Shown in pieces: positions 17,860 through 26,381 of a stretch of DNA of 64,000 nt (position 1 is its first letter; the number at the start of each line of letters is the position of its first letter). Origin of the DNA: a virus. Its lineage: Duplodnaviria; Caudoviricetes. The DNA lies in the IMG/VR virus record IMGVR_UViG_2898133256_000001, positions 1 to 64,000 of that record, one strand, 5' to 3'. The translations under genes were made by a program, and so were the position numbers. Under the pieces are notes generated by a model. That model searched no databases. It was not told the origin of the DNA and worked only from the letters and a program-made list of their open reading frames with translations.

Positions 17860-18498
17860 TTGCCCCGGAAGCCGTCCACGCCCGCGCCAAGACTTGTCGC
17901 CGTGGCACGAAAGCCCCCCAGCACCCAGCCTGACGCCCCGGAGCCGGATGACGGCACGGGCGATGCCTCGCGCGAGCTGACGCCCAAGCAGCGCGCCTTC
18001 GTCCGGGAGTACCTGAAGGACTCCTGCGCGGCTCAGGCCGCCATTCGCGCCGGCTACTCCGCGAAGACGGCGGACTCGGCGGGCTCGCGGTTGTTGAGGA
18101 ATGTCAAGGTTCAGGCTGCGCTGGAGGAGATGGAGGCGGCGCTCGCCGAGGCGGTGGGGGACGAAGTCACCGTCGAGGTGGCGGAGGTCATCCGCGAGCT
18201 GCGGTACCTGGCCTTCTCCGACATCGGCCAGGGCGTCGGCGAGCTGGGCGGGGTGCGCAACCTGAAGGACATGCCCGAGGGCTTCCGCCGGGCGATCTCC
18301 AGCATCGAGGTGGAGGAGCTGTTCGAAGGGAAGGGCGAGGAGCGGGAGCAGGTCGGCATCGTCACGAAGGTGAAGCTCTGGCCGAAGGACAAGGCGCTGG
18401 AGCTGCTCGGCAGGTTCCTGAAGATGTTCACCGACAAGGTGGACCTCGAAGCCACTCTCAAGAAGAGCCACGAGGACGCGCTGGGAGAGCTGGAGTGA
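17860..18498 (+). CDS. Terminase small subunit
   Basis: LTPKQRAFVREYLKD..AAQAAIRAGYS.KTA...SRLL; KDKALELLGR.L.MF. Confidence 0.93.
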   Translation: MPRKPSTPAPRLVAVARKPPSTQPDAPEPDDGTGDASRELTPKQRAFVREYLKDSCAAQAAIRAGYSAKTADSAGSRLLRNVKVQAALEEMEAALAEAVGDEVTVEVAEVIRELRYLAFSDIGQGVGELGGVRNLKDMPEGFRRAISSIEVEELFEGKGEEREQVGIVTKVKLWPKDKALELLGRFLKMFTDKVDLEATLKKSHEDALGELE

Positions 18499-20081
18499 GC
18501 GTGGCGCGCCAGGCCCGGCGGAGCCCGTCCGTCCGGACGCAGGTGGCCCGGGGGCGGGAGCCTCGCATCCTCCGGAAGCGGCTCGGGCGGCAGCGGCCCG
18601 AGAAGAAGGCCCTGCTGTCGCCGCGCGAAAAGGCCATTCGCCAGCGGTTGAAGGACGACTTCCCACACTACTCGTCGCGGTGCCTCTTCATCCGGACGAA
18701 GAAGGGGGGCGTCGAGCCCTTCGTCCTCAACGCGGCCCAGACGTACCTGCACAAGCGCCTGGCGGAGCAGCTCCGGGTGACGGGACGGGTGCGTGCCCTC
18801 ATCGTGAAGGGGCGCCAGCAGGGCTGCACCACCTACGTGCAGGGGCGTTTCTTCCAGGCCCTGTCTCACCGCGAGGGCGTCCGGGCCTACATCCTCACGC
18901 ACGAGGACGCGGCCACCAACAACGTCTTCGAGATGACGAAGCGGTACTACGAGAACTGCCCCGCTCTCGTCAGGCCCAGCAAGGGCGCCGCGAACGCGAA
19001 GGAGCTCGTCTTCGACAAGCTCTCGTCCGGGTACAAGGTGGGCACCGCGGGCAGCAAGGGGACGGGGCGCTCCTCCACGGTGCAGTACTTCCACGGCAGC
19101 GAGGTGGCGTACTGGCCCAACGCCGACACCCACGTGGCCGGTGTCCTCCAGGCGGTGCCAGACGAGGACGGGACCGAAGTCATCCTCGAGTCCACCAGCA
19201 ACGGGCCCGAGGGACTCTTCTACGACCTGTGCATGGCGGCGCAGCGGGGGGAGGGCGACTACCAGCTCATCTTCATCCCCTGGTTTTGGAGCTCCGAGTA
19301 CCGGAAGAAGGTGCCGGCGGGCCTCGCCCTCACCTCGGAGGAGGAGCGCTACAAGGAGGCGCACGGCCTCGATGACGGGCAGATGGCCTGGCGCCGGGCC
19401 AAGGTGGTGGAGCTGGGCGGCGTGCACCACTTCCGGCGCGAGTACCCGGCGACGGTGGAGGAGGCCTTCAAGGCCGCTGCGGTGGGCGCGCTGTGGACGC
19501 AGGAGCTTCTGGACCTGCACCGCGTGGCGGAGCGCCCCAGGGATGCCGAGGGCAAGCCGCTGCCGATGGTGCGCGTGGCCGTGGCGGTGGACCCTGCCGG
19601 CGGCGATGGGCCGGACAACGACGAGGTGGGCATTGTCTGCGCGGGCGTCGCCTCCAACGGGCACGCCTACGTGTGGCGGGACGACTCGGCGAAGTACACG
19701 GCGGAGGGCTGGGCCTCCAAGGCCCTGGCCGTCTACGAGAAGGAGATGGCCGACGTCCTCGTGGGCGAGAAGAACTACGGCGGCGACATGGTGGAGACCA
19801 CCATCCGCAGCAAGGCCCGTGAGTCGCGCAAGCACGTCAACGTGAAGGTGGTGACGGCCTCGCGTGGCAAGGCGAAGCGCGCGGCCCCCGTGGCGGCCCT
19901 CTACGAGCGTGGCCTCGTGCACCACGTGGGCCGCCTCATTGCCCTGGAAGACGAGCAGACGACGTGGGTGCCGGGCGAGACGAAGTGGAGCCCCAACCGC
20001 ATGGACGCCGCAGTGTGGGCACTGACGGAGCTGATGCTGGGCAAGGGCGCCGACACCTTCAAGGTGGGGAGCTACCGGTGA
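18495..20081 (+). CDS. Terminase large subunit
   Basis: KGRQQGCTT, HGSEVAYW, ILEST.NG, nuclease VAVDP and PNRMDA. Confidence 0.95.
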   Translation: MSVARQARRSPSVRTQVARGREPRILRKRLGRQRPEKKALLSPREKAIRQRLKDDFPHYSSRCLFIRTKKGGVEPFVLNAAQTYLHKRLAEQLRVTGRVRALIVKGRQQGCTTYVQGRFFQALSHREGVRAYILTHEDAATNNVFEMTKRYYENCPALVRPSKGAANAKELVFDKLSSGYKVGTAGSKGTGRSSTVQYFHGSEVAYWPNADTHVAGVLQAVPDEDGTEVILESTSNGPEGLFYDLCMAAQRGEGDYQLIFIPWFWSSEYRKKVPAGLALTSEEERYKEAHGLDDGQMAWRRAKVVELGGVHHFRREYPATVEEAFKAAAVGALWTQELLDLHRVAERPRDAEGKPLPMVRVAVAVDPAGGDGPDNDEVGIVCAGVASNGHAYVWRDDSAKYTAEGWASKALAVYEKEMADVLVGEKNYGGDMVETTIRSKARESRKHVNVKVVTASRGKAKRAAPVAALYERGLVHHVGRLIALEDEQTTWVPGETKWSPNRMDAAVWALTELMLGKGADTFKVGSYR

Positions 20082-20581
20082 GCGTCGCGTGCGCCACCGC
20101 GCCGGCACCGGGTGCCGTCCTGTACGTGTCCGGCCCGTACCGCGTCTGGGTGCGGCGCACCGTGCTGGCGAAGGCCCAGCGCCTGGCCCGCGTGCGTGCC
20201 CCGCTGGAGACGGGCGGGCTGCTGCTGGGGCAGGTGGTGGACGGCGAGGCCCACGTGCTGGCGCTGACGGGCCCGGGGCGGCGCGCGCGTCGCAGCCGCC
20301 TGGGCTACGAGTCGGACGGGGCGCGGGACACCCGGCTGGTGGCGCGCGTCTACCCGCAGCTGCACTACCTGGGCGACTGGCACACCCACCCGGGCGGCCC
20401 CGCGGTGCTGTCCGCGACGGACGTGGCCTCCATTCGGGGGGCGCTGTCGCCCTCCCGGCCCGAGGTGCTGCACCTGCTGCTGGCGGGCCCGGCCGACATG
20501 GGTGACGCCGTGGCCTCTCTCTTCACCCTGGTGTGCGGCGAGTCCGCCGCCCGCCGCATGACGCCCGAGGTGGCAGCGTGA
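20078..20581 (+). CDS. JAB/MPN (Prok-JAB) metallo-isopeptidase
   Basis: ETGGLLLG and YLGDWHTHP...LSATD (E...HxH...SxxD). Confidence 0.88.
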   Translation: MSVACATAPAPGAVLYVSGPYRVWVRRTVLAKAQRLARVRAPLETGGLLLGQVVDGEAHVLALTGPGRRARRSRLGYESDGARDTRLVARVYPQLHYLGDWHTHPGGPAVLSATDVASIRGALSPSRPEVLHLLLAGPADMGDAVASLFTLVCGESAARRMTPEVAA

Positions 20582-21114
20582 CGTGCATAGCTGGAGTGGT
20601 GGCGAAGGGCCGTGTGTACCTGGGAGGGGATAGCGCGGGCGTCGGTGGGTACGAGCTCACCGTCCGCTCGGACGTGAAGGTGTTCTCCAACGGCCCCTTC
20701 CTCATTGGCTTCACCTCGTCCTACCGCATGGGGCAGTTGCTCCAGCATGCCTTCAGCCCGCCACCGCCGCCGAGGAAGCCCGGGGCGCTGGGCCGGTACA
20801 TGGTGGTGGACTTCGTCGACGCCGTGCGCGCGGCGCTGAAGGACAAGGGCTGGGCGACGAAGCAGAGCGAGCAGGAGCTGGGAGGCACCTTCCTCGTCGG
20901 CGTGGCGGGACACCTCTTCCGCCTCGAGGCCGACTACCAGGTGGGCGAGGCCCGAGACGGCTTCGACGCCGTGGGGTGTGGCAGCGAGGCCGCGCGTGGG
21001 GCGCTCTTCGCGTCCTGGCACCTCAAGCCCGAGTCCCGAGTGCGCATGGCGTTGCGTGCCGCGGAGCGCCTCAGCGCGGGCGTGCGCGGCCCCTTCCGGG
21101 TGGTGTCGGGGTGA
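20578..21114 (+). CDS. HslV/proteasome-beta-like Ntn-hydrolase protease
   Basis: N-terminal Thr (MTCIAG), GGDS, conserved K, AVGCGS..A.GAL. Confidence 0.8.
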   Translation: MTCIAGVVAKGRVYLGGDSAGVGGYELTVRSDVKVFSNGPFLIGFTSSYRMGQLLQHAFSPPPPPRKPGALGRYMVVDFVDAVRAALKDKGWATKQSEQELGGTFLVGVAGHLFRLEADYQVGEARDGFDAVGCGSEAARGALFASWHLKPESRVRMALRAAERLSAGVRGPFRVVSG

Positions 21115-21347
21115 GCTGCCGCGCACCCACGCCGCCGGTGGCCGGACGCCGCCGTGCCGCCTCCACCTGGCGCCTGCGCGGGCGCGGGCTGCCCCGTGCC
21201 GCCCGGCGCGACTCCACCGTGCTGGTGCTGCGCTTCTTCGCCTACCTCGAACACCGGACGTCCACGCGCTTGTCCCGGCTGTCCCTCCGGGCATGGCAGT
21301 ACGTCCACCTCCGCCGCCCCGGCCATGCAGAGAGGGCCCGCCCATGA
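21111..21347 (+). CDS. Hypothetical Arg-rich protein
   Basis: Fills gap with GTGA and ATGA overlaps. Confidence 0.4.
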   Translation: MSCRAPTPPVAGRRRAASTWRLRGRGLPRAARRDSTVLVLRFFAYLEHRTSTRLSRLSLRAWQYVHLRRPGHAERARP

Positions 21348-22900
21348 CGTCCGACGTGAGCAACAAGAGCAGCGCCTACAAGGCGATGGAGCCGCACTGG
21401 GCCATGGTGAAGGCCCTCCAGGGTGGCACGGAGGCCATGCGCGCCGCTGCGACGACGTACCTGCCTCGGCACGCGCGAGAGTCCGACGAGGCCTACAGCG
21501 AGCGCCTCCAGCGCAGCTTCCTCTTCAACTACTTCGAGACGTCCCTCTCCACGCTGGCGGAGATGCCCTTCACCAAGCCGGTGGTGCTGGCGGACTCCGC
21601 GCCCGAGGAGCTGCACAACCTCGTGGGCGACGTCGACAGGCAGGGCAACGACTTGACGTCCTGGGCCCGCAACGTCTTCACGGACGGGCTGGCCAACGGG
21701 CTGACGCACATCCTCGTCGACTTCCCCAAGGTGGACAGGGCCCGGGTGCAGACACGGGCGGATGAGGTGGAGGCGGACGTCCGCCCCTACTTCGTCCACG
21801 TGCCTGCCGACTCGCTCCTGGCTGCCTACGCCACCGTGGAGGGCGGCGCCCAGGTGCTGACGCACATTCGCTTCCGCGAGACGGTGACGCGGGCGTCCGG
21901 CTTCGAGGAGGTGGCCGTGGAGCGCGTCCGTGTCCTCGAGCGGAAGGCCTGGGCGGTGTACGAAAAGGACGGGAACGGCGCCTGGGCGCAGGTAGACAGC
22001 GGGGAGAACACGCTGGGCTTCATCTCTCTCGTCACCTGGTACGCGGGCAAGCCGAAGGGCTTCATGCTCATCCGCCCGCCGTTGCTGTCCCTGGCGGAGA
22101 AGAACCTGGAGCACTGGCAGTCCGCCAGTGACCAGCGAAACATCCTCACGGTGGCGCGGTTCCCCATCTTGGCGGCCTCGGGCGTGACGGAGGCGTCGCC
22201 GCGGGAAGAGCGCACCAGCACGGAAGGGATGAGCGCCGAGGATGTGGAGTTCCTCGGGCGTCCCGGTGCGCGGGCGGGAATCACCATCGGCCCCCACTCG
22301 CTGCTCACCACCACCAACCCCCAGGGGAAGTTCTACTACGTCGAGCACACCGGGGCGGCCATCGACGCCGGTGCGAAGGACCTGGAGCGCCTGGAGGACC
22401 AGATGGCGGCGCTCAGCATCGAACTGGTCGTCCGGAGGAAGGGCAACACCACGGCGACGGAGAAGGACATCAACACCGGGCAGAGCTACTCGAAGCTCCA
22501 GTCCATGGCCCGCCGCTTCGGAGATGCGCTTGCGCTGGCCTTCCACTTCGCGGCCCGGTGGGTGTCCCTGGAAGTGCCGGACGACCAGCTGAAGGTGTCC
22601 GTCCACACGGACTTCGGCGTGGAGGAGGGCGACTCGCAGGGGCTGGAGGTACTCCTCAAGACGCGCCAGGCGCGGGACCTCTCCCGCCCGGCCTACCTGA
22701 AGGAACTCAAGCGGCGGGGCACTCTCTCCGCGGACTTCGACGTGGCGGTGAACCAGGAGGAACTGGATGCGGAGGGGCCTGCGTTGGGCACGCTTCGCTC
22801 CGAGCCGAAGGACAAGCCCCAGCTTCCCGGCCAGACGGTGCCCCCGCAGCCGCCCGCCGCTGGTGGCGGTCCCCCTGTCGCTGCTGGAGGTGCAGCGTGA
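21344..22900 (+). CDS. Portal protein (DUF4055-type)
   Basis: YLPR...ES.EAY..RL.RS, DVDRQGNDL, HILVDFP, RPYFV, PPLL.LA..NL.HWQ..SD. Confidence 0.9.
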   Translation: MTSDVSNKSSAYKAMEPHWAMVKALQGGTEAMRAAATTYLPRHARESDEAYSERLQRSFLFNYFETSLSTLAEMPFTKPVVLADSAPEELHNLVGDVDRQGNDLTSWARNVFTDGLANGLTHILVDFPKVDRARVQTRADEVEADVRPYFVHVPADSLLAAYATVEGGAQVLTHIRFRETVTRASGFEEVAVERVRVLERKAWAVYEKDGNGAWAQVDSGENTLGFISLVTWYAGKPKGFMLIRPPLLSLAEKNLEHWQSASDQRNILTVARFPILAASGVTEASPREERTSTEGMSAEDVEFLGRPGARAGITIGPHSLLTTTNPQGKFYYVEHTGAAIDAGAKDLERLEDQMAALSIELVVRRKGNTTATEKDINTGQSYSKLQSMARRFGDALALAFHFAARWVSLEVPDDQLKVSVHTDFGVEEGDSQGLEVLLKTRQARDLSRPAYLKELKRRGTLSADFDVAVNQEELDAEGPALGTLRSEPKDKPQLPGQTVPPQPPAAGGGPPVAAGGAA

Positions 22901-23193
22901 CCCTCGACGCCTGCTTCATCCGGGAGGTACTCGGCGGAATGAACCGCGTCGAGGCACTGCCGTGCCTTGTCCCTCTTCCTGGTACGTGGGGTTTCAACTT
23001 CCAGTGCAACCGGAAGGGCACGCGGAAGGTGCGCCGTGTCCTGCGCGACTGGCACCGGACGCTGCTGCTCCGGCTCATCCACGGGGGCTGCAAGGCGCTG
23101 GTGCTGGAGGGCGACCTGGTGCTGACGCGGGAGGCGTTCGTCACGGCGCTCGCGGCGCGGCAGGTGCTCACGAAGGGCGGAGGTGCCGCGTGA
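22897..23193 (+). CDS. Hypothetical protein
   Basis: GGAGG RBS, GTGA overlaps. Confidence 0.5.
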   Translation: MTLDACFIREVLGGMNRVEALPCLVPLPGTWGFNFQCNRKGTRKVRRVLRDWHRTLLLRLIHGGCKALVLEGDLVLTREAFVTALAARQVLTKGGGAA

Positions 23194-23903
23194 AGCGGCT
23201 CCGTGTCATGGGGGCCGAGCTGGCGTTGAAGGTGGCGTCCGTGCTCGCCGACGTGGAGGGGGCGTCGGCAGCCCGGTGCGAGTGCGGGGAGTGGCTCAGG
23301 GAGGCCTGCGCCACCTGCACTCGGTGCGGAGCCTCGCCACCTCGATGGGAGGACGCCGGGGTGAGGGCGCGCCGCTGGCCTCGCTGCTCCTGCTGCTCGG
23401 AGCCGATGGACGCCAGCCGCCTCACGGCCTGCGTCCATTGTGCGGCCGCGCTTGAGCAGCGCGCGGTGCGGGAGGCGTTGGCGCGCCTGGTTGGTGCGCA
23501 CGGTGAGGCGCCCGAAACGACAGGGGACCCGGGCGGAAACTCCTCGGAACCCGGGCAGTCGGTGCGCACCGCTGAACAGCCCGCCGCCGAACTGGACCTG
23601 GAAGAGCTCGAGCGCGTGGCCCGCGCGGCCGCACGGCACGACGACGGCTGGACTCTGGAGACCGCGGAGACGTCGCCCCACCTGGCCGAGGATCCGGCAT
23701 CCTCCGTCCACCTGCCGCTCGACGTGAGGTGGACGGCCACCATCGTCACCCGAGCACCATGGAGCGTCCTGCTGGAGGTGGTGGGCAACGTCACCGCCGT
23801 GCCGGACCGGGCGCGCCACATCCTCGCCTTCCAGCCCCGCGTGGCCCTGGCCCTGCTCGCCGAGATGCGCCGCCTGCGTGAGGGGAGGGGTGGCGGGTGC
23901 TGA
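23190..23903 (+). CDS. Hypothetical protein with CxxC pairs
   Basis: GGAGG RBS, GTGA overlap. Confidence 0.5.
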   Translation: MKRLRVMGAELALKVASVLADVEGASAARCECGEWLREACATCTRCGASPPRWEDAGVRARRWPRCSCCSEPMDASRLTACVHCAAALEQRAVREALARLVGAHGEAPETTGDPGGNSSEPGQSVRTAEQPAAELDLEELERVARAAARHDDGWTLETAETSPHLAEDPASSVHLPLDVRWTATIVTRAPWSVLLEVVGNVTAVPDRARHILAFQPRVALALLAEMRRLREGRGGGC

Positions 23904-24733
23904 CGTCGTGCGTGCAGCGGTGGAGCGGGCGGCGGGCCAGCTACCGGCCTGCCGGCGAGCCGATCCGCGCCAGCGACTACGAGGTGGCACCCCTGGCGCG
24001 CGACACCGAGGCGCGGGCCTTCGTCGAGGAGCATCACTACAGCGGCTCCTACCCGGCTGCCCGGTGGCGCTTCGGACTCCATCGCCGGGGTCAGCTCGTG
24101 GGCGTCGCGGTGTTCTCCCAGCCCGTCAACGACAAGTCCCTGGCCGTCTTCCCTGGTGGGGCGGCCTCCGCGGTGGAGCTCGGGCGCTTCGTGCTGCTGG
24201 ACGACGTGCCCGCCAACGGGGAGACGTGGTTCCTCGCGCGGGCCTTCGAGGTGCTGGCGCGCGACGGGGTGGTGGGCGTCCAGTCGTTCGCGGACCCGGA
24301 GCCGCGCACCACCGCGAGCGGCGAGGTGGTGTTCCCCGGGCACGTGGGCACCATCTACCAAGCGCACAACGCGGTGTACCGGGGACGGGCGACGCCGCGT
24401 ACGCTACACCTGCTGCCCGACGGGACGGTGTTCAGCGCCCGCGCGGCGCAGAAGGTGAGGGCGCGGGAGCAGGGCTGGCGGTACGCCGTGGCGCAGCTGG
24501 TGGAGTCCGGCGCCCAGCAGCCCGCGCCCGGCGAGGACCTGCGCGGGTGGCTCCGGGAGTGGCTGCCCCGGGTGACGCGCCGACAGCGCCACCGGGGCAA
24601 TCACCGCTACCTGTGGGGGCTGCGTCCAGCAGTCCGCCGGCACCTGCCACCGTCGCTGCCGTACCCGAAGTGGGAAGTGCGGTTGGTGTCGGAACGAGCT
24701 GCGCTGAGCGGCCGCAGCCCGGGAAACGTGTGA
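23897..24733 (+). CDS. Mom-like (GNAT-fold) DNA adenine modification protein
   Basis: FVEEHHYS, ELGRFVL...PANGETWFLAR, SFADP, GHVGTIYQA.N..Y.G. Confidence 0.78.
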   Translation: MLTSCVQRWSGRRASYRPAGEPIRASDYEVAPLARDTEARAFVEEHHYSGSYPAARWRFGLHRRGQLVGVAVFSQPVNDKSLAVFPGGAASAVELGRFVLLDDVPANGETWFLARAFEVLARDGVVGVQSFADPEPRTTASGEVVFPGHVGTIYQAHNAVYRGRATPRTLHLLPDGTVFSARAAQKVRAREQGWRYAVAQLVESGAQQPAPGEDLRGWLREWLPRVTRRQRHRGNHRYLWGLRPAVRRHLPPSLPYPKWEVRLVSERAALSGRSPGNV

Positions 24734-24779
24734 TTAGAAATGCGCTGGTGACGTGGGGTAGTGCCTGCTTCGCGAAGCA

Positions 24780-25157
24780 TCAAGGACCGCAAGACCACGT
24801 CCGTACTTCTGTGCACTCGCAACGCCACTCATACCCGCCAGAGTCGCAGCAGATCAGGCTAACTCCCTGGCGTCTGCAGGTCCTGTCCTGAAAATTGGAA
24901 CACGGTTCAGCGTCGCACGTGGGGGACGGCGTGGGGCACGCGATTGAGGTGCCATCGCACGTCACTCCCACTCCGTTCGTCGCGGTGCAGTTGACCGTCG
25001 TCGCCGGGCAACTCACCGAGCCCTGTGCACAGGTGGCGGTGCAGGCCGTCAACTCCTGAGACGAGGCGTTCATCTCCTCGCTCTCGGTGGTCACTCCTCC
25101 GCACCCCACAGCGAACGCGGCGGCGCACGCCAACACCAACAGCTTCAAGCTCTTCAT
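24780..25157 (-). CDS. Cys-rich myxobacterial-type lipoprotein (moron)
   Basis: MKSLKLLVLAC...FAVGC lipobox; CTATC...VSC...C.A..GVGVTCDG. Confidence 0.8.
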   Translation of the reverse strand: MKSLKLLVLACAAAFAVGCGGVTTESEEMNASSQELTACTATCAQGSVSCPATTVNCTATNGVGVTCDGTSIACPTPSPTCDAEPCSNFQDRTCRRQGVSLICCDSGGYEWRCECTEVRTWSCGP

Positions 25158-25279
25158 GGTGAATCCCCTGTCGTGAGGGTGTGCGAGCGAGAGGACGACC
25201 GGGCTGGTGGCATCTTCGGCAATTCATGCGACAGCCGCAATTCGCGCCGCCGCATGGGTCGGTAGCGCCCGGGGCTCCG

Positions 25280-25795
25280 ATGCCCATCGCACAGGTGGCG
25301 CGGACCGCGTCCTCACCTGCGATGACGCTCGGGCCCATGCGTTCCCGTGCAGACGCAAGCCGTGTCCTATCGCGCCAGAGTAGGCCGCCCGCCGTCACCA
25401 TCGGTGGGCTGCCCCGGGCGCTTCCTCGCGTCCGCTTCGTTCGCCACCGCAGCCCCCACGCCCTGGCGCGCGTCTACTTCCGCCCCATGGGGCTGCGGCC
25501 TCGTGACGTTGCTGAGTGGCCCGCCATGCGTCGGGGCATCCTTGCCATGGGTGCATGGGCCTTCGCTGGACGGCGGCCGAAGGGGTCCGTGGTTCACTAC
25601 TGGGCGGCACCCAGCGTCTCCCCGCTCCACCTCGCCTACATCCTCGGGCACGAGGTGGGGCACGTCTCGGGCAAGCAGCTGCGCTCCCGGCGCAACGCGT
25701 GGAGGGAGGAACTGCGCGCGGACGAGTACGGCGCGGCGGCGTACCTGTCGCTGAAGCACGTCCTTGCCGTTGCTGGGAAGGCTGGTGCCGCGTGA
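25280..25795 (+). CDS. Zn-metallopeptidase-like protein (HExxH)
   Basis: LAYILGHEVGH...EELRADEYG; start uncertain. Confidence 0.6.
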   Translation: MPIAQVARTASSPAMTLGPMRSRADASRVLSRQSRPPAVTIGGLPRALPRVRFVRHRSPHALARVYFRPMGLRPRDVAEWPAMRRGILAMGAWAFAGRRPKGSVVHYWAAPSVSPLHLAYILGHEVGHVSGKQLRSRRNAWREELRADEYGAAAYLSLKHVLAVAGKAGAA

Positions 25796-26043
25796 GTCCC
25801 GGAACCGGGGAGGAGCACGCCGCGGCGGAGGTCCAGCGGCAGTTCGCGATGATTGAGTGGCTGGAGCAGCAGAGCCCGATTCTGACGGCGTTCCCCTTCG
25901 CCGCGCTGCCGCCGGAGCCGCTCATGATGTGCCGCACGCCGCTGGCGTCGTCGCTGGATGCGAGCTGGCACGCGGAGCCGGAAGGGTGCCCGACCTGGAC
26001 GGACGCTGCGGAGTGCCAGTGCATGCGAGGGGGCGAGGCGTGA
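25792..26043 (+). CDS. Hypothetical protein
   Basis: GTGA overlaps. Confidence 0.45.
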   Translation: MSPGTGEEHAAAEVQRQFAMIEWLEQQSPILTAFPFAALPPEPLMMCRTPLASSLDASWHAEPEGCPTWTDAAECQCMRGGEA

Positions 26044-26381
26044 GGCCTCTCGTCCTGGATGTGTTGCTGAAGGCGCCGGGGGCCGCTCTTCGCGCACTCT
26101 TCAACTCCCCGAAGACGCACGACTACACGGAGCGGTACTGGGGGCACGACTACTCCATTCAGGAGGTCCGCGACGATGGCCGGAGCCTCACTGCCATGGG
26201 GTGGGGCTGCGGCATCGAGGAAGGCCACTTCCTGCTTCTCCGGAACGGGGCTGGATCCACGCGCTACCTCGTCCGGCGCATTCGGTACATGGCCGACCCT
26301 CACGACATGTGGAGCGCGAGCCTGGAGTTCGCGCCGCGTCAGGGGCCGTCGCCAGAGACAGAGGACGGCGCCGGACGGTGA
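26040..26381 (+). CDS. Hypothetical protein
   Basis: GTGA overlaps; HDY...WGHDY, I.Y..DP.DMW. Confidence 0.55.
   Translation: MRPLVLDVLLKAPGAALRALFNSPKTHDYTERYWGHDYSIQEVRDDGRSLTAMGWGCGIEEGHFLLLRNGAGSTRYLVRRIRYMADPHDMWSASLEFAPRQGPSPETEDGAGR

What the first reader, a model, noticed from the sequence alone, without database searches (positions are those of the whole stretch)
20078..21114. Phage-encoded JAB isopeptidase plus proteasome-beta-like protease between terminase and portal
Seen: two translationally coupled genes (GTGA overlaps) with intact JAB (E...HTH...SxxD) and N-terminal-Thr Ntn-hydrolase motifs, in the late operon. Known: ETGG/GxWHTHP-type JABs are the deconjugases of bacterial ubiquitin-like systems (CBASS Cap3, Bil), distinct from the gpK JAB also present here; Bil conjugates a Ubl to tail proteins. 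No E1, E2 or free Ubl is visible in the window. Inference: a minimal deconjugate-and-degrade module that could counter host Ubl-based defence during virion assembly.
Basis: partly seen in the sequence, partly recalled or inferred. Interest (0 to 1): 0.75.

Follow-up and report, generated by a model that had tools for sequence, protein, structure and literature searches.

The report
Solo Cap3-like JAB plus phage proteasome homolog
A Myxococcus prophage carries, between its terminase and portal genes, a lone copy of the enzyme type that bacteria use to undo ubiquitin-like tagging in anti-phage systems, followed by a proteasome-like protease. The two genes are independent rather than a pair, but lone enzymes of the first type recur beside portal genes in unrelated phages, which is new and testable.

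Summary
Genes 20078-20581 and 20578-21114 are intact and joined by GTGA overlaps to the terminase large subunit (TerL), to each other and to a third small gene (21111-21347). That small gene overlaps the portal start (ATGA).

- **Gene 1** is a JAB/JAMM peptidase with all catalytic residues. Its best solved match is Cap3 bound to a CD-NTase (PDB 9ILD). 73 of its 78 best bacterial relatives lie directly behind a Cap2-type E1-E2 ligase. Here there is no ligase.
- **Gene 2** is an N-terminal-threonine peptidase. Its model is closest to BPH and HslV, and it belongs to a very large phage-borne family of unknown function.

The "deconjugate-and-degrade module" reading is not supported.
- In 14 related myxobacterial prophages the JAB is always present next to the portal.
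- The protease is present in only 7 of them, and its alleles swap independently of the JAB.
- It occurs in 207 phage records; none of the eight phage, prophage and viral-contig contexts inspected had a JAB beside it.

New here: seven unrelated viral lineages carry solo JABs of this clade within two genes of their terminase, portal, connector or MuF genes.

My best reading (about 0.4) is a head-module counter-defence deconjugase. The main rival (about 0.3) is a head-maturation peptidase.

Earlier first-reader notes on another genome (e1-5867763, e1-5867748) flagged the same solo JAB.

The parts
18495..20081 (+). Terminase large subunit; its stop codon overlaps the JAB start codon
   Evidence: Pfam Terminase_6C, E 1.5e-10. 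GTGA overlap at 20078-20081.
20078..20581 (+). Stand-alone Cap3-clade JAB/JAMM isopeptidase, 167 aa
   Evidence: Prok-JAB 45.9 bits. PADLOC JAB PDLC00891, E 5e-18. Best PDB match is 9ILD Cap3+CD-NTase: HMM E 6.5e-19; Foldseek E 4.9e-11, TM 0.77/0.85. Catalytic E44, H102, H104, S112 and D115 are invariant.
20578..21114 (+). Proteasome-beta/HslV/BPH-like N-terminal-Thr peptidase, 178 aa; a facultative cassette
   Evidence: PHROG 1040, E 6e-20. No Pfam hit. Foldseek best matches are BPH 5ovt/5ovs at TM 0.80 and HslV at 0.70-0.73. Thr1, Asp17 and Lys33 (mature numbering) are invariant, followed later by a Gly-Cys-Gly turn whose two Gly are invariant. Present in 7 of 14 related prophages.
21111..21347 (+). 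Conserved small basic protein, 78 aa, of unknown family; translationally coupled to the Ntn gene and to the portal
   Evidence: Homologs at 53-93% identity in seven related loci (L004/L005, L010, L025, L043, L045, L046, L047); not found in L008 or L009. Substitutions by codon position are 283:202:468, and GC3 is 0.87. No Pfam, PHROG, PADLOC or Atlas match.
21344..22900 (+). Portal protein (DUF4055 type); the gene with which the JAB is always inherited
   Evidence: PF13264, E 9e-36. All portals of at least 59% identity have the JAB just upstream; none of 48 portals at 44% identity or less do. The C-terminal tail ends in a Gly-Gly-x-x motif.

Best explanation
Two independent accessory genes occupy one slot of the packaging/head operon of a Myxococcus prophage.

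**Shown.**
- Gene 1 is a catalytically intact, stand-alone member of the Cap3 clade of JAB isopeptidases. In bacteria, members of this clade lie directly behind a Cap2-type E1-E2 ligase. Characterised Cap3 enzymes cut the conjugates that Cap2 makes.
- Gene 1 is a fixed companion of the portal gene throughout this phage lineage.
- Solo JABs of the same clade sit beside terminase, portal, connector or MuF genes in at least seven unrelated viral lineages.
- Gene 2 is a proteasome-beta/HslV/BPH-like threonine peptidase. It belongs to a huge, highly conserved phage-borne family and is present in half of the lineage as an exchangeable cassette.

**Inferred.**
- The JAB is made together with the head proteins, and may be loaded into the head through the portal or MuF neighbourhood.
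- There it would cleave Cap2-type conjugates. These could be primed CD-NTase or other cargo-protein conjugates, or host tags placed on virion proteins. Either way it would blunt E1-E2-dependent defence.
- The peptidase acts separately, probably as a ring-forming protease on host or phage proteins.
For: **Identity of the JAB.**

**Nearest cellular relatives.**
- 73 of the 78 best bacterial relatives lie directly behind an E1-E2 fusion ORF.
- The cargo genes upstream of that ORF are mixed: a DncV-like CD-NTase, a ThsB-type TIR and a weak MBL-like match.
- Split E2 + E1 + JAB operons occur on mobile elements.

**Solo status.** No E1, E2 or CD-NTase is in the window, and the host genome has no SMODS hit.

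**Targets exist in the host clade.**
- SMODS is found in 8 of the 10 other species of the genus and in 41 of 151 genomes of the family.
- Cap3-like genes scoring 96-116 bits are found in 10 genomes of the family.

**Linkage to the portal.**
- The JAB is present in 14 of 14 related prophages, even where the TerL type differs.
- In 151 family genomes the portal and the JAB are found in the same two genomes.

**Recurrence in unrelated viral lineages.**
- L109: TerL-JAB-96 aa-portal.
- L111: Mu portal-MuF-Neck1-JAB.
- L113: T7-type portal-106 aa-JAB.
- L116: JAB-TerL-portal.
- L115: JAB, then TerL-portal.
- L107: connector-JAB.
- L120: TerL-portal-x-JAB-x-MuF.

**A variable slot.** It also holds a 521-aa protein with a weak Tad2-like C-terminus in L009.

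**Precedents.** A virion ejection protein inhibits type II CBASS (bioRxiv 10.1101/2025.07.23.666291). Hor et al. proposed that phage DUB domains counter the Bil system (bioRxiv 10.1101/2023.09.04.556158).

**Independence of the peptidase.**
Against: - No activity or phenotype data exist for the JAB or the peptidase.
- Cap3 is not simply an antagonist. In Bacillus cereus and in E. coli against T4 and T6 it raises immunity (PMC11153139), so a Cap3 mimic need not weaken CBASS.
- Strict conservation with the portal, at a divergence like that of core head genes, looks more like a core assembly gene than a typical patchy anti-defence gene.
- Late, translationally coupled expression is poorly timed for an early-acting defence unless the protein is packaged. 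Packaging is unshown.
- The phage JAB clade is not derived from the host family's own CBASS JABs.
- It scores far below the NCBIfam Cap3 cut-offs.
- The lysogen and the other genome carrying this prophage type lack SMODS.
- The viral-contig sample is biased towards contigs that carry hallmark head genes.
Confidence: 0.4

Rival explanations
1. The JAB is a head-assembly or maturation peptidase that acts on the phage's own proteins. One possibility is that it trims the flexible C-terminal tail of the portal, or of a neighbouring neck protein, after a Gly-Gly motif. It would not be directed at host defence.
For: - The JAB is present in 14 of 14 prophages, is co-inherited with the portal and is translationally coupled.
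- It lies next to portal, connector or MuF genes in seven further lineages.
- Portal tails of the lineage are variable but end in (A/S)-G-G-x-x in 11 of 12.
- The proteins just upstream of the JAB in L111 and L113 also end in G-G-x-x. The background for this ending is about 2%.
- A different JAB family sits before the MuF-like gene of mycobacteriophage Patience and is annotated 'protease'. The Patience capsid is cleaved at residues 82/83 (PMC4324244).
Against: - Distant portals without a JAB (the L058 group) also end in A-G-G plus three residues, so the motif is not tied to the JAB.
- Portals of 32-44% identity lack both the motif and the JAB.
- The head module looks like the SPP1/P22 type, with a separate roughly 250-aa candidate scaffold and a roughly 305-aa capsid protein. 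That type usually needs no protease.
- All close cellular relatives are partners of E1-E2 ligases.
Confidence: 0.3
2. The JAB and the Ntn peptidase form a two-part machine: the JAB strips a ubiquitin-like tag and the proteasome-like partner degrades it or its carrier.
For: - The two genes are adjacent and translationally coupled in 7 prophages, always in the order JAB then peptidase.
- The pairing recalls Rpn11 with the 20S proteasome (established knowledge).
Against: - Half of the lineage has the JAB without the peptidase.
- Peptidase alleles swap independently. L043 has the JAB at 93% identity but the peptidase at 66%. L047 has the JAB at 89% and the peptidase at 99%.
- None of the other solo-JAB viral loci has the peptidase.
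- None of the eight peptidase contexts inspected, in other phages and prophages, has a JAB.
- No unfoldase gene is present.
Confidence: 0.1
3. The genes serve the lysogen rather than the phage. For example, they could tune a host conjugation system or protein turnover, as ordinary prophage cargo.
For: - The window carries several cargo cassettes (notes; low-GC blocks).
- The peptidase family is also found in chromosomal contexts (PMC8665760).
Against: - Both genes are embedded by overlapping start and stop codons inside the late packaging operon. They are not behind a promoter of their own.
- The host genome has no defence-type E1-E2/JAB operon and no SMODS hit.
Confidence: 0.05

Closest known systems
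Cap3, the JAB isopeptidase of type II CBASS (PDB 9ILD, Cap3 with CD-NTase)
   Same: - Same fold and the full JAMM motif.
- It is the best solved match by sequence profile and by structure.
- The nearest cellular relatives lie behind Cap2-type E1-E2 genes.
   Different: - No Cap2, CD-NTase or effector lies nearby.
- It is encoded in a phage head/packaging operon.
- It scores 34.9 bits against NF050170 (cut-off 200) and 45.9 bits against TIGR02256 (cut-off 127.6).
- It forms a clade separate from the host family's CBASS JABs.
BilC, the JAB deubiquitinase of the Bil (Ubl-E1-E2-DUB) defence system
   Same: - Both are prokaryotic JABs tied to E1/E2 conjugation.
- Bil tags a virion protein, so a phage JAB expressed with structural genes is a conceivable counter (bioRxiv 10.1101/2023.09.04.556158).
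   Different: - No Ubl, E1 or E2 is present here.
- No BilC sequence was on hand, so no direct comparison was made.
Lambda gpK-type tail-tip JAB fused to NlpC/P60 (also present in this window at about 52.3 kb)
   Same: Both have a JAB domain and are encoded by a phage.
   Different: - gpK lies in the tail module and is fused to NlpC/P60.
- It is separated from the Cap3-like JABs by a long, supported branch (95/96) on the tree.
Actinophage head-module JAB 'protease' (Mycobacterium phage Patience gp19)
   Same: Both are small solo JABs inside the portal-MuF-capsid block (PMC4324244).
   Different: - Patience gp19 belongs to a different JAB subfamily: hhalign probability is 65% and Foldseek E is 5e-3.
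- Its function is also untested.
BPH, HslV and the phage-borne proteasome homologs PPH/AAH (Fuchs, Alva and Lupas 2021, PMC8665760)
   Same: - Compact proteasome-beta fold with no propeptide.
- Thr1, Asp17 and Lys33 are present.
- TM 0.80 to BPH and 0.70-0.73 to HslV.
- Spread by phages across phyla.
   Different: - No Pfam Proteasome or NCBIfam HslV hit.
- No adjacent hslU; the host has its own hslVU elsewhere.
- At 178 aa it is longer than the roughly 140-aa PPH of T5-like phages, which match only residues 1-137.
- Assignment to AAH or to PPH could not be tested.

Membership tests
Prok-JAB / JAMM metallopeptidases (PF14464) | The motif Glu ... His-x-His-x7-Ser-x2-Asp, and a score above the Pfam gathering threshold | tested here: met
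   45.9 bits against a cut-off of 25. E44, H102, H104, S112 and D115 are invariant in 34 sequences.
Cap3 (CBASS type II isopeptidase) | Score above the curated NCBIfam equivalog cut-offs (NF050170, TIGR02256) | tested here: not met
   34.9 bits against 200, and 45.9 bits against 127.6. Host-family Cap3-like genes score 96-116 bits.
Cap3 (CBASS type II isopeptidase) | Closest solved structure and sequence is Cap3 | tested here: met
   9ILD_A: HMM E 6.5e-19; Foldseek E 4.9e-11, TM 0.77/0.85. The next best match is an Rpn11 homolog at E 9e-8.
Cap3 (CBASS type II isopeptidase) | Encoded in an operon with a Cap2 E1-E2 ligase and a CD-NTase | tested here: not met
   No match to nine E1, E2 or CD-NTase seeds in the window. 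No SMODS hit in the genome. The flanking genes are TerL and portal.
Cap3 (CBASS type II isopeptidase) | Cleaves conjugates at the C-terminus of a CD-NTase | not testable with these tools
   This needs enzymology.
BilC (Bil system DUB) | Operon with a Ubl, an E2 and an E1 | tested here: not met
   None is in the window. The genome's only other JABs are gpK and a JAB in a sulfur-metabolism context with ThiF and APS kinase.
gpK-type tail JAB | Fusion to NlpC/P60 and a position in the tail-tip module | tested here: not met
   It is a stand-alone 167-aa protein in the head module, on a separate tree branch with 95/96 support.
Proteasome-beta / HslV superfamily (Ntn hydrolases) | N-terminal Thr nucleophile with Asp17 and Lys33, and the alpha-beta-beta-alpha sandwich fold | tested here: met
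   Thr2, Asp18 and Lys34 (numbered with the start Met, equal to Thr1, Asp17 and Lys33 of the mature protein) are invariant in 30 sequences. TM 0.80 to BPH and 0.70-0.73 to HslV.
HslV proper | Match to the Pfam Proteasome or NCBIfam HslV models, and pairing with hslU | tested here: not met
   No Pfam or NCBIfam hit. The canonical hslVU pair lies on another contig.
PPH / AAH phage-borne proteasome homologs (PMC8665760) | Clustering with the published representative sequences | not tested
   The representative sequences were not on hand. Distribution across alpha-proteobacteria, actinobacteria and phages, together with the length, fits AAH better than the roughly 140-aa PPH.

The most novel reading that the evidence does not exclude
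Solo Cap3-clade isopeptidases would be a previously unrecognised component of the head/packaging module in many tailed phages. They would dock on or trim Gly-Gly-tailed portal or neck proteins and be carried in the capsid. On injection, or during assembly, they would strip E1-E2-made conjugates. That would be a virion-associated, deubiquitinase-like counter to the Cap2 family of bacterial conjugation defences.
Probability: 0.15. Interest if true: 0.85.

Novelty: new variant of a known kind. Interest (0 to 1): 0.6.

Why it matters
Bacterial E1-E2 conjugation is now known to drive type II CBASS, Bil and related defences. In the literature I could search, no phage enzyme that reverses such conjugation has been demonstrated; Hor et al. 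only speculate about it.

A lone Cap3-like enzyme fixed next to the portal gene, and recurring beside head genes in unrelated phages, gives concrete candidates for three questions:
- whether phages deconjugate host tags;
- what Cap3 activity does to immunity;
- whether JAB peptidases have a role in head assembly.

The neighbouring protease adds a tractable example of the uncharacterised phage-borne proteasome homologs. The work also corrects the tempting "mini ubiquitin-proteasome" reading.

Tried and rejected
- **Portal search in genome contigs.** It returned no confirmed relatives.
- **Small ORF.** It has no match in Pfam, PHROG, PADLOC or the Atlas.
- **JAB searches in cultured phages.** Two further JAB queries found nothing beyond MW202482.
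- **CD-NTase profile.** A profile grown from one seed found only 4 of 78 loci and was too narrow to type the operons. Ten neighbours were typed by Pfam instead.
- **Recent capture from host CBASS.** Rejected: the tree keeps the phage clade apart from both host-family JAB clades.
- **Number of captures.** The quick tree scatters the solo JABs, but its well-supported branches do not force more than one origin, so this stays unresolved.
- **HslU dependence of the peptidase.** I considered it but regard it as unlikely to be general. From general knowledge, not checked here, actinobacteria lack HslU, yet close homologs occur in them.
- **Gly-Gly tail as proof of a JAB substrate.** Not accepted, because JAB-less distant portals share a similar ending.
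- **Genus pattern.** Both genomes in the genus that carry this prophage type lack SMODS, while 8 of the 9 that do not carry it have it. With numbers this small and related genomes I give it no weight.
- **Literature.** Searches found no study of solo phage JABs beside portal genes, and none on the function of phage proteasome homologs.
Full report
**What is there**

The window is a 70% GC prophage. Its genome falls in the same genus as Myxococcus sp. Y35. On the + strand a chain of genes is linked by overlapping stop and start codons:
- TerS, 17860-18498 (Terminase_2);
- TerL, 18495-20081 (Terminase_6C);
- a 167-aa gene, 20078-20581;
- a 178-aa gene, 20578-21114;
- a 78-aa gene, 21111-21347;
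- the portal, 21344-22900 (DUF4055).

The overlaps are GTGA three times and ATGA once. A third coupled gene was missed.

That small gene is basic and matches no known family. It is conserved in related prophages. Its substitutions fall mostly on third codon positions (283:202:468), so it is probably real.

**Gene 1: the JAB**

It passes Pfam Prok-JAB at 45.9 bits against a cut-off of 25. It matches 28 PADLOC JAB, E1-E2 and related models, the best at E 5e-18. The Glu and the His-x-His...Ser-x-x-Asp residues are invariant in 34 homologs.

An AlphaFold model (pLDDT 93) and a sequence profile both pick the same best solved structure. This is Cap3 in complex with a CD-NTase (9ILD): HMM E 6.5e-19, Foldseek E 4.9e-11, TM 0.77/0.85. 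It ranks ahead of Rpn11-type enzymes.

Known viral protein models are much more distant; the best has E 2e-5.

The protein scores well below the curated NCBIfam Cap3 cut-offs. I therefore call it a member of the Cap3 clade in the broad sense, not an equivalog.

**What its relatives do for a living**

I took the 80 best relatives in one genome per bacterial species. Two of them are myxobacterial prophages. Of the other 78, 73 lie immediately downstream of an E1-E2 fusion ORF of the Cap2 kind.

The gene upstream of the ligase varies: a DncV-like CD-NTase, a ThsB-type TIR, a weak MBL-like match, or small unknown proteins. Metagenomic relatives at about 40% identity sit in split E2 + E1 + JAB operons on mobile elements.

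So this JAB clade is the deconjugase partner of Cap2-type ligases in a range of defence-like operons.

In this window there is no E1, E2 or CD-NTase. The 99.99%-complete genome has no SMODS hit. It holds only two other Prok-JABs, gpK and one in a sulfur-metabolism context with ThiF and APS kinase.

**Gene 2: the Ntn peptidase**

It has no Pfam or NCBIfam hit but matches PHROG 1040, 'peptidase HslV family'. Thr follows the start codon directly. In mature numbering, Thr1, Asp17 and Lys33 are invariant in 30 homologs, and so are the two Gly of a later Gly-Cys-Gly turn.

The model (pLDDT 90) is closest to BPH at TM 0.80, then HslV at 0.70-0.73, then 20S beta subunits.

The family is very large and unusually conserved:
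- more than 4000 clusters at 90% identity;
- about 60% identity to proteins from Mesorhizobium, Streptomyces and Ktedonobacteria;
- 55% identity to Moorella phage MTATph1.

Fuchs, Alva and Lupas described such phage-borne proteasome homologs (PPH, AAH, CPH) by sequence analysis only; no function is known (PMC8665760). The host has its own hslVU elsewhere in the genome.

**Are the two genes a module?**

I found no support for this.

*Outside the myxobacterial lineage.*
- The peptidase occurs in 207 phage records. In the eight contexts I inspected it lies among early or unrelated genes with no JAB next door.
- The JAB has one weak hit in 50,697 phage records.

*Within the lineage.* I counted 14 distinct prophages.
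- The JAB is present in all 14.
- The peptidase is present in 7: the window, L010, L043, L047, L008, L100 and L103.
- It is absent in 7: L004, L025, L045, L046, L009, L101 and L104.

*Identity is uncoupled.*
- L043: JAB 93%, peptidase 66%, portal 86%.
- L047: JAB 89%, peptidase 99%.

*In 151 family genomes.* The JAB is in 2 and the peptidase in 8. Only the window's genome has both.

The peptidase is a mobile cassette that has landed in a permissive slot. In L009 the same slot holds a different insert, a 521-aa protein with a weak Tad2-like end.

**What is constant is JAB plus portal**

A portal-anchored search, which is not biased by the JAB, gave this result:
- every portal of at least 59% identity has the JAB just upstream (5 of 5);
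- none of 48 portals at 44% identity or less does.

In 151 family genomes the portal and the JAB are found in exactly the same two genomes. The JAB stays with the portal even where the TerL is of another type (L004, L045).

On a tree the myxophage JABs form one clade (support 100/99). That clade is separate from the two host-family CBASS-linked JAB clades and far from gpK and the sulfur-context JAB. It is therefore not a recent theft from a host CBASS.

**Recurrence in unrelated phages**

I scanned viral contigs with the JAB profile and added one GenBank record. This gave seven non-myxobacterial solo JAB lineages. All seven lie within two genes of head or packaging genes of different families:
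- L109: TerL-JAB-96 aa-portal (lambda-like);
- L111: Mu portal-MuF-Neck1-like-JAB;
- L113: T7-type portal-106 aa-JAB;
- L116: JAB-gpA-type TerL-portal;
- L115: JAB, then TerL and portal;
- L107: connector-like 485 aa-JAB;
- L120 (MW202482): TerL-portal-carboxypeptidase-JAB-x-MuF-like.

Three further viral lineages carry the JAB with an E1 or a Cap2-like gene.

There is a caveat. Viral contigs are recognised partly by these hallmark genes, so the sample favours such neighbourhoods. However, the contigs are 11-93 kb long and one is a complete 43-kb genome.

A quick tree scatters the solo JABs among Cap2-linked ones, but its well-supported branches do not force more than one origin.

A different JAB subfamily occupies a similar place in actinophages. 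Patience gp19, annotated 'protease', lies right before the MuF-like gp20. The Patience capsid is cleaved at residues 82/83 (PMC4324244). An earlier scan report (e1-4376138) pointed me to this.

**How it most likely works**

Two readings fit the anatomy.

*(a) Counter-defence, which I favour at about 0.4.* A ligase-less Cap3-type enzyme is made with the head proteins. It cuts Cap2-made conjugates, either during assembly or, if it is carried in the capsid near the portal or MuF, on arrival in the next cell.
- Targets exist in the host clade: SMODS in 8 of the 10 other species of the genus and in 41 of 151 family genomes, with Cap2/Cap3-type loci present.
- A virion ejection protein that blocks type II CBASS is a precedent (bioRxiv 10.1101/2025.07.23.666291).
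- Hor et al. proposed that phage DUB domains counter Bil.
- Against this, Cap3 raises immunity in some systems (PMC11153139). Packaging is unshown. The gene also behaves like a core gene of the lineage.

*(b) Head-assembly peptidase, about 0.3.*
- The portal tails of the lineage are variable but end in (A/S)-G-G-x-x in 11 of 12.
- In L111 and L113 the proteins just upstream of the JAB also end in G-G-x-x. The background for this ending is about 2%.
- This looks like a ubiquitin-precursor-style tail and could be a substrate or a docking site.
- However, a distant JAB-less portal group ends similarly, so the link is unproven.

The peptidase is best treated on its own. I regard it as probably a self-compartmentalising Thr protease of unknown target.

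**Verdict**

The two-gene module is not supported.

The finding worth keeping is narrower. It is a solo Cap3-clade JAB fixed to the portal gene, with parallels beside head genes in unrelated phages. I found no published description of this.

First readers of this scan flagged the same solo JAB on another genome (e1-5867763, e1-5867748).

Noticed in passing
window 21111-21347: A third translationally coupled gene lies between the Ntn peptidase and the portal. It encodes a 78-aa, very basic protein conserved at 53-93% identity in related prophages. It has a coding-type substitution pattern and no known family.
   Followed up: partly
window 22850-22900; also L004, L008, L009, L025, L043, L047, L111:4420-5001, L113:2906-4941: Portal C-terminal tails of the lineage are variable but end in (A/S)-Gly-Gly plus two residues in 11 of 12. 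Proteins next to solo JABs in two unrelated viral contigs end the same way. A JAB-less distant portal group ends in A-G-G plus three residues.
   Followed up: partly
window 22900-26369: About 3.4 kb of extra genes lies between the portal and the MuF-like gene, where related prophages have 0-0.4 kb. It includes a 278-aa ORF (23897-24733) and a Cys-rich 125-aa ORF on the minus strand with a signal-like N-terminus (24780-25157).
   Followed up: no
L009:3439-5004: In Corallococcus sp. EGB the slot between TerL and the JAB holds a 521-aa protein. Its last 60 residues weakly match the Tad2-like (anti-Thoeris) domain: E 8e-4, below the cut-off.
   Followed up: partly
L037, L038, L039 (family genomes G106, G089, G061): A second kind of SMODS-linked locus in Myxococcaceae carries its own distinct JAB clade about 3 kb downstream of a CD-NTase-like gene.
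   Followed up: partly
L125:3652-6400: A Patescibacteria contig has a ThsB-type TIR protein followed by a Cap2-like E1-E2 gene and a JAB. This suggests that conjugation control extends to TIR cargo.
   Followed up: no
G000:C69:462324-464604 (L021): The host chromosome has a ThiF gene and a Prok-JAB about 1.3 kb apart, with an APS kinase just downstream. I read this as a sulfur-carrier pathway and not as defence.
   Followed up: partly
family genomes: The two genomes of the genus that carry this prophage type (G000, G124) are among the three of eleven without a SMODS hit. The numbers are too small to interpret.
   Followed up: no
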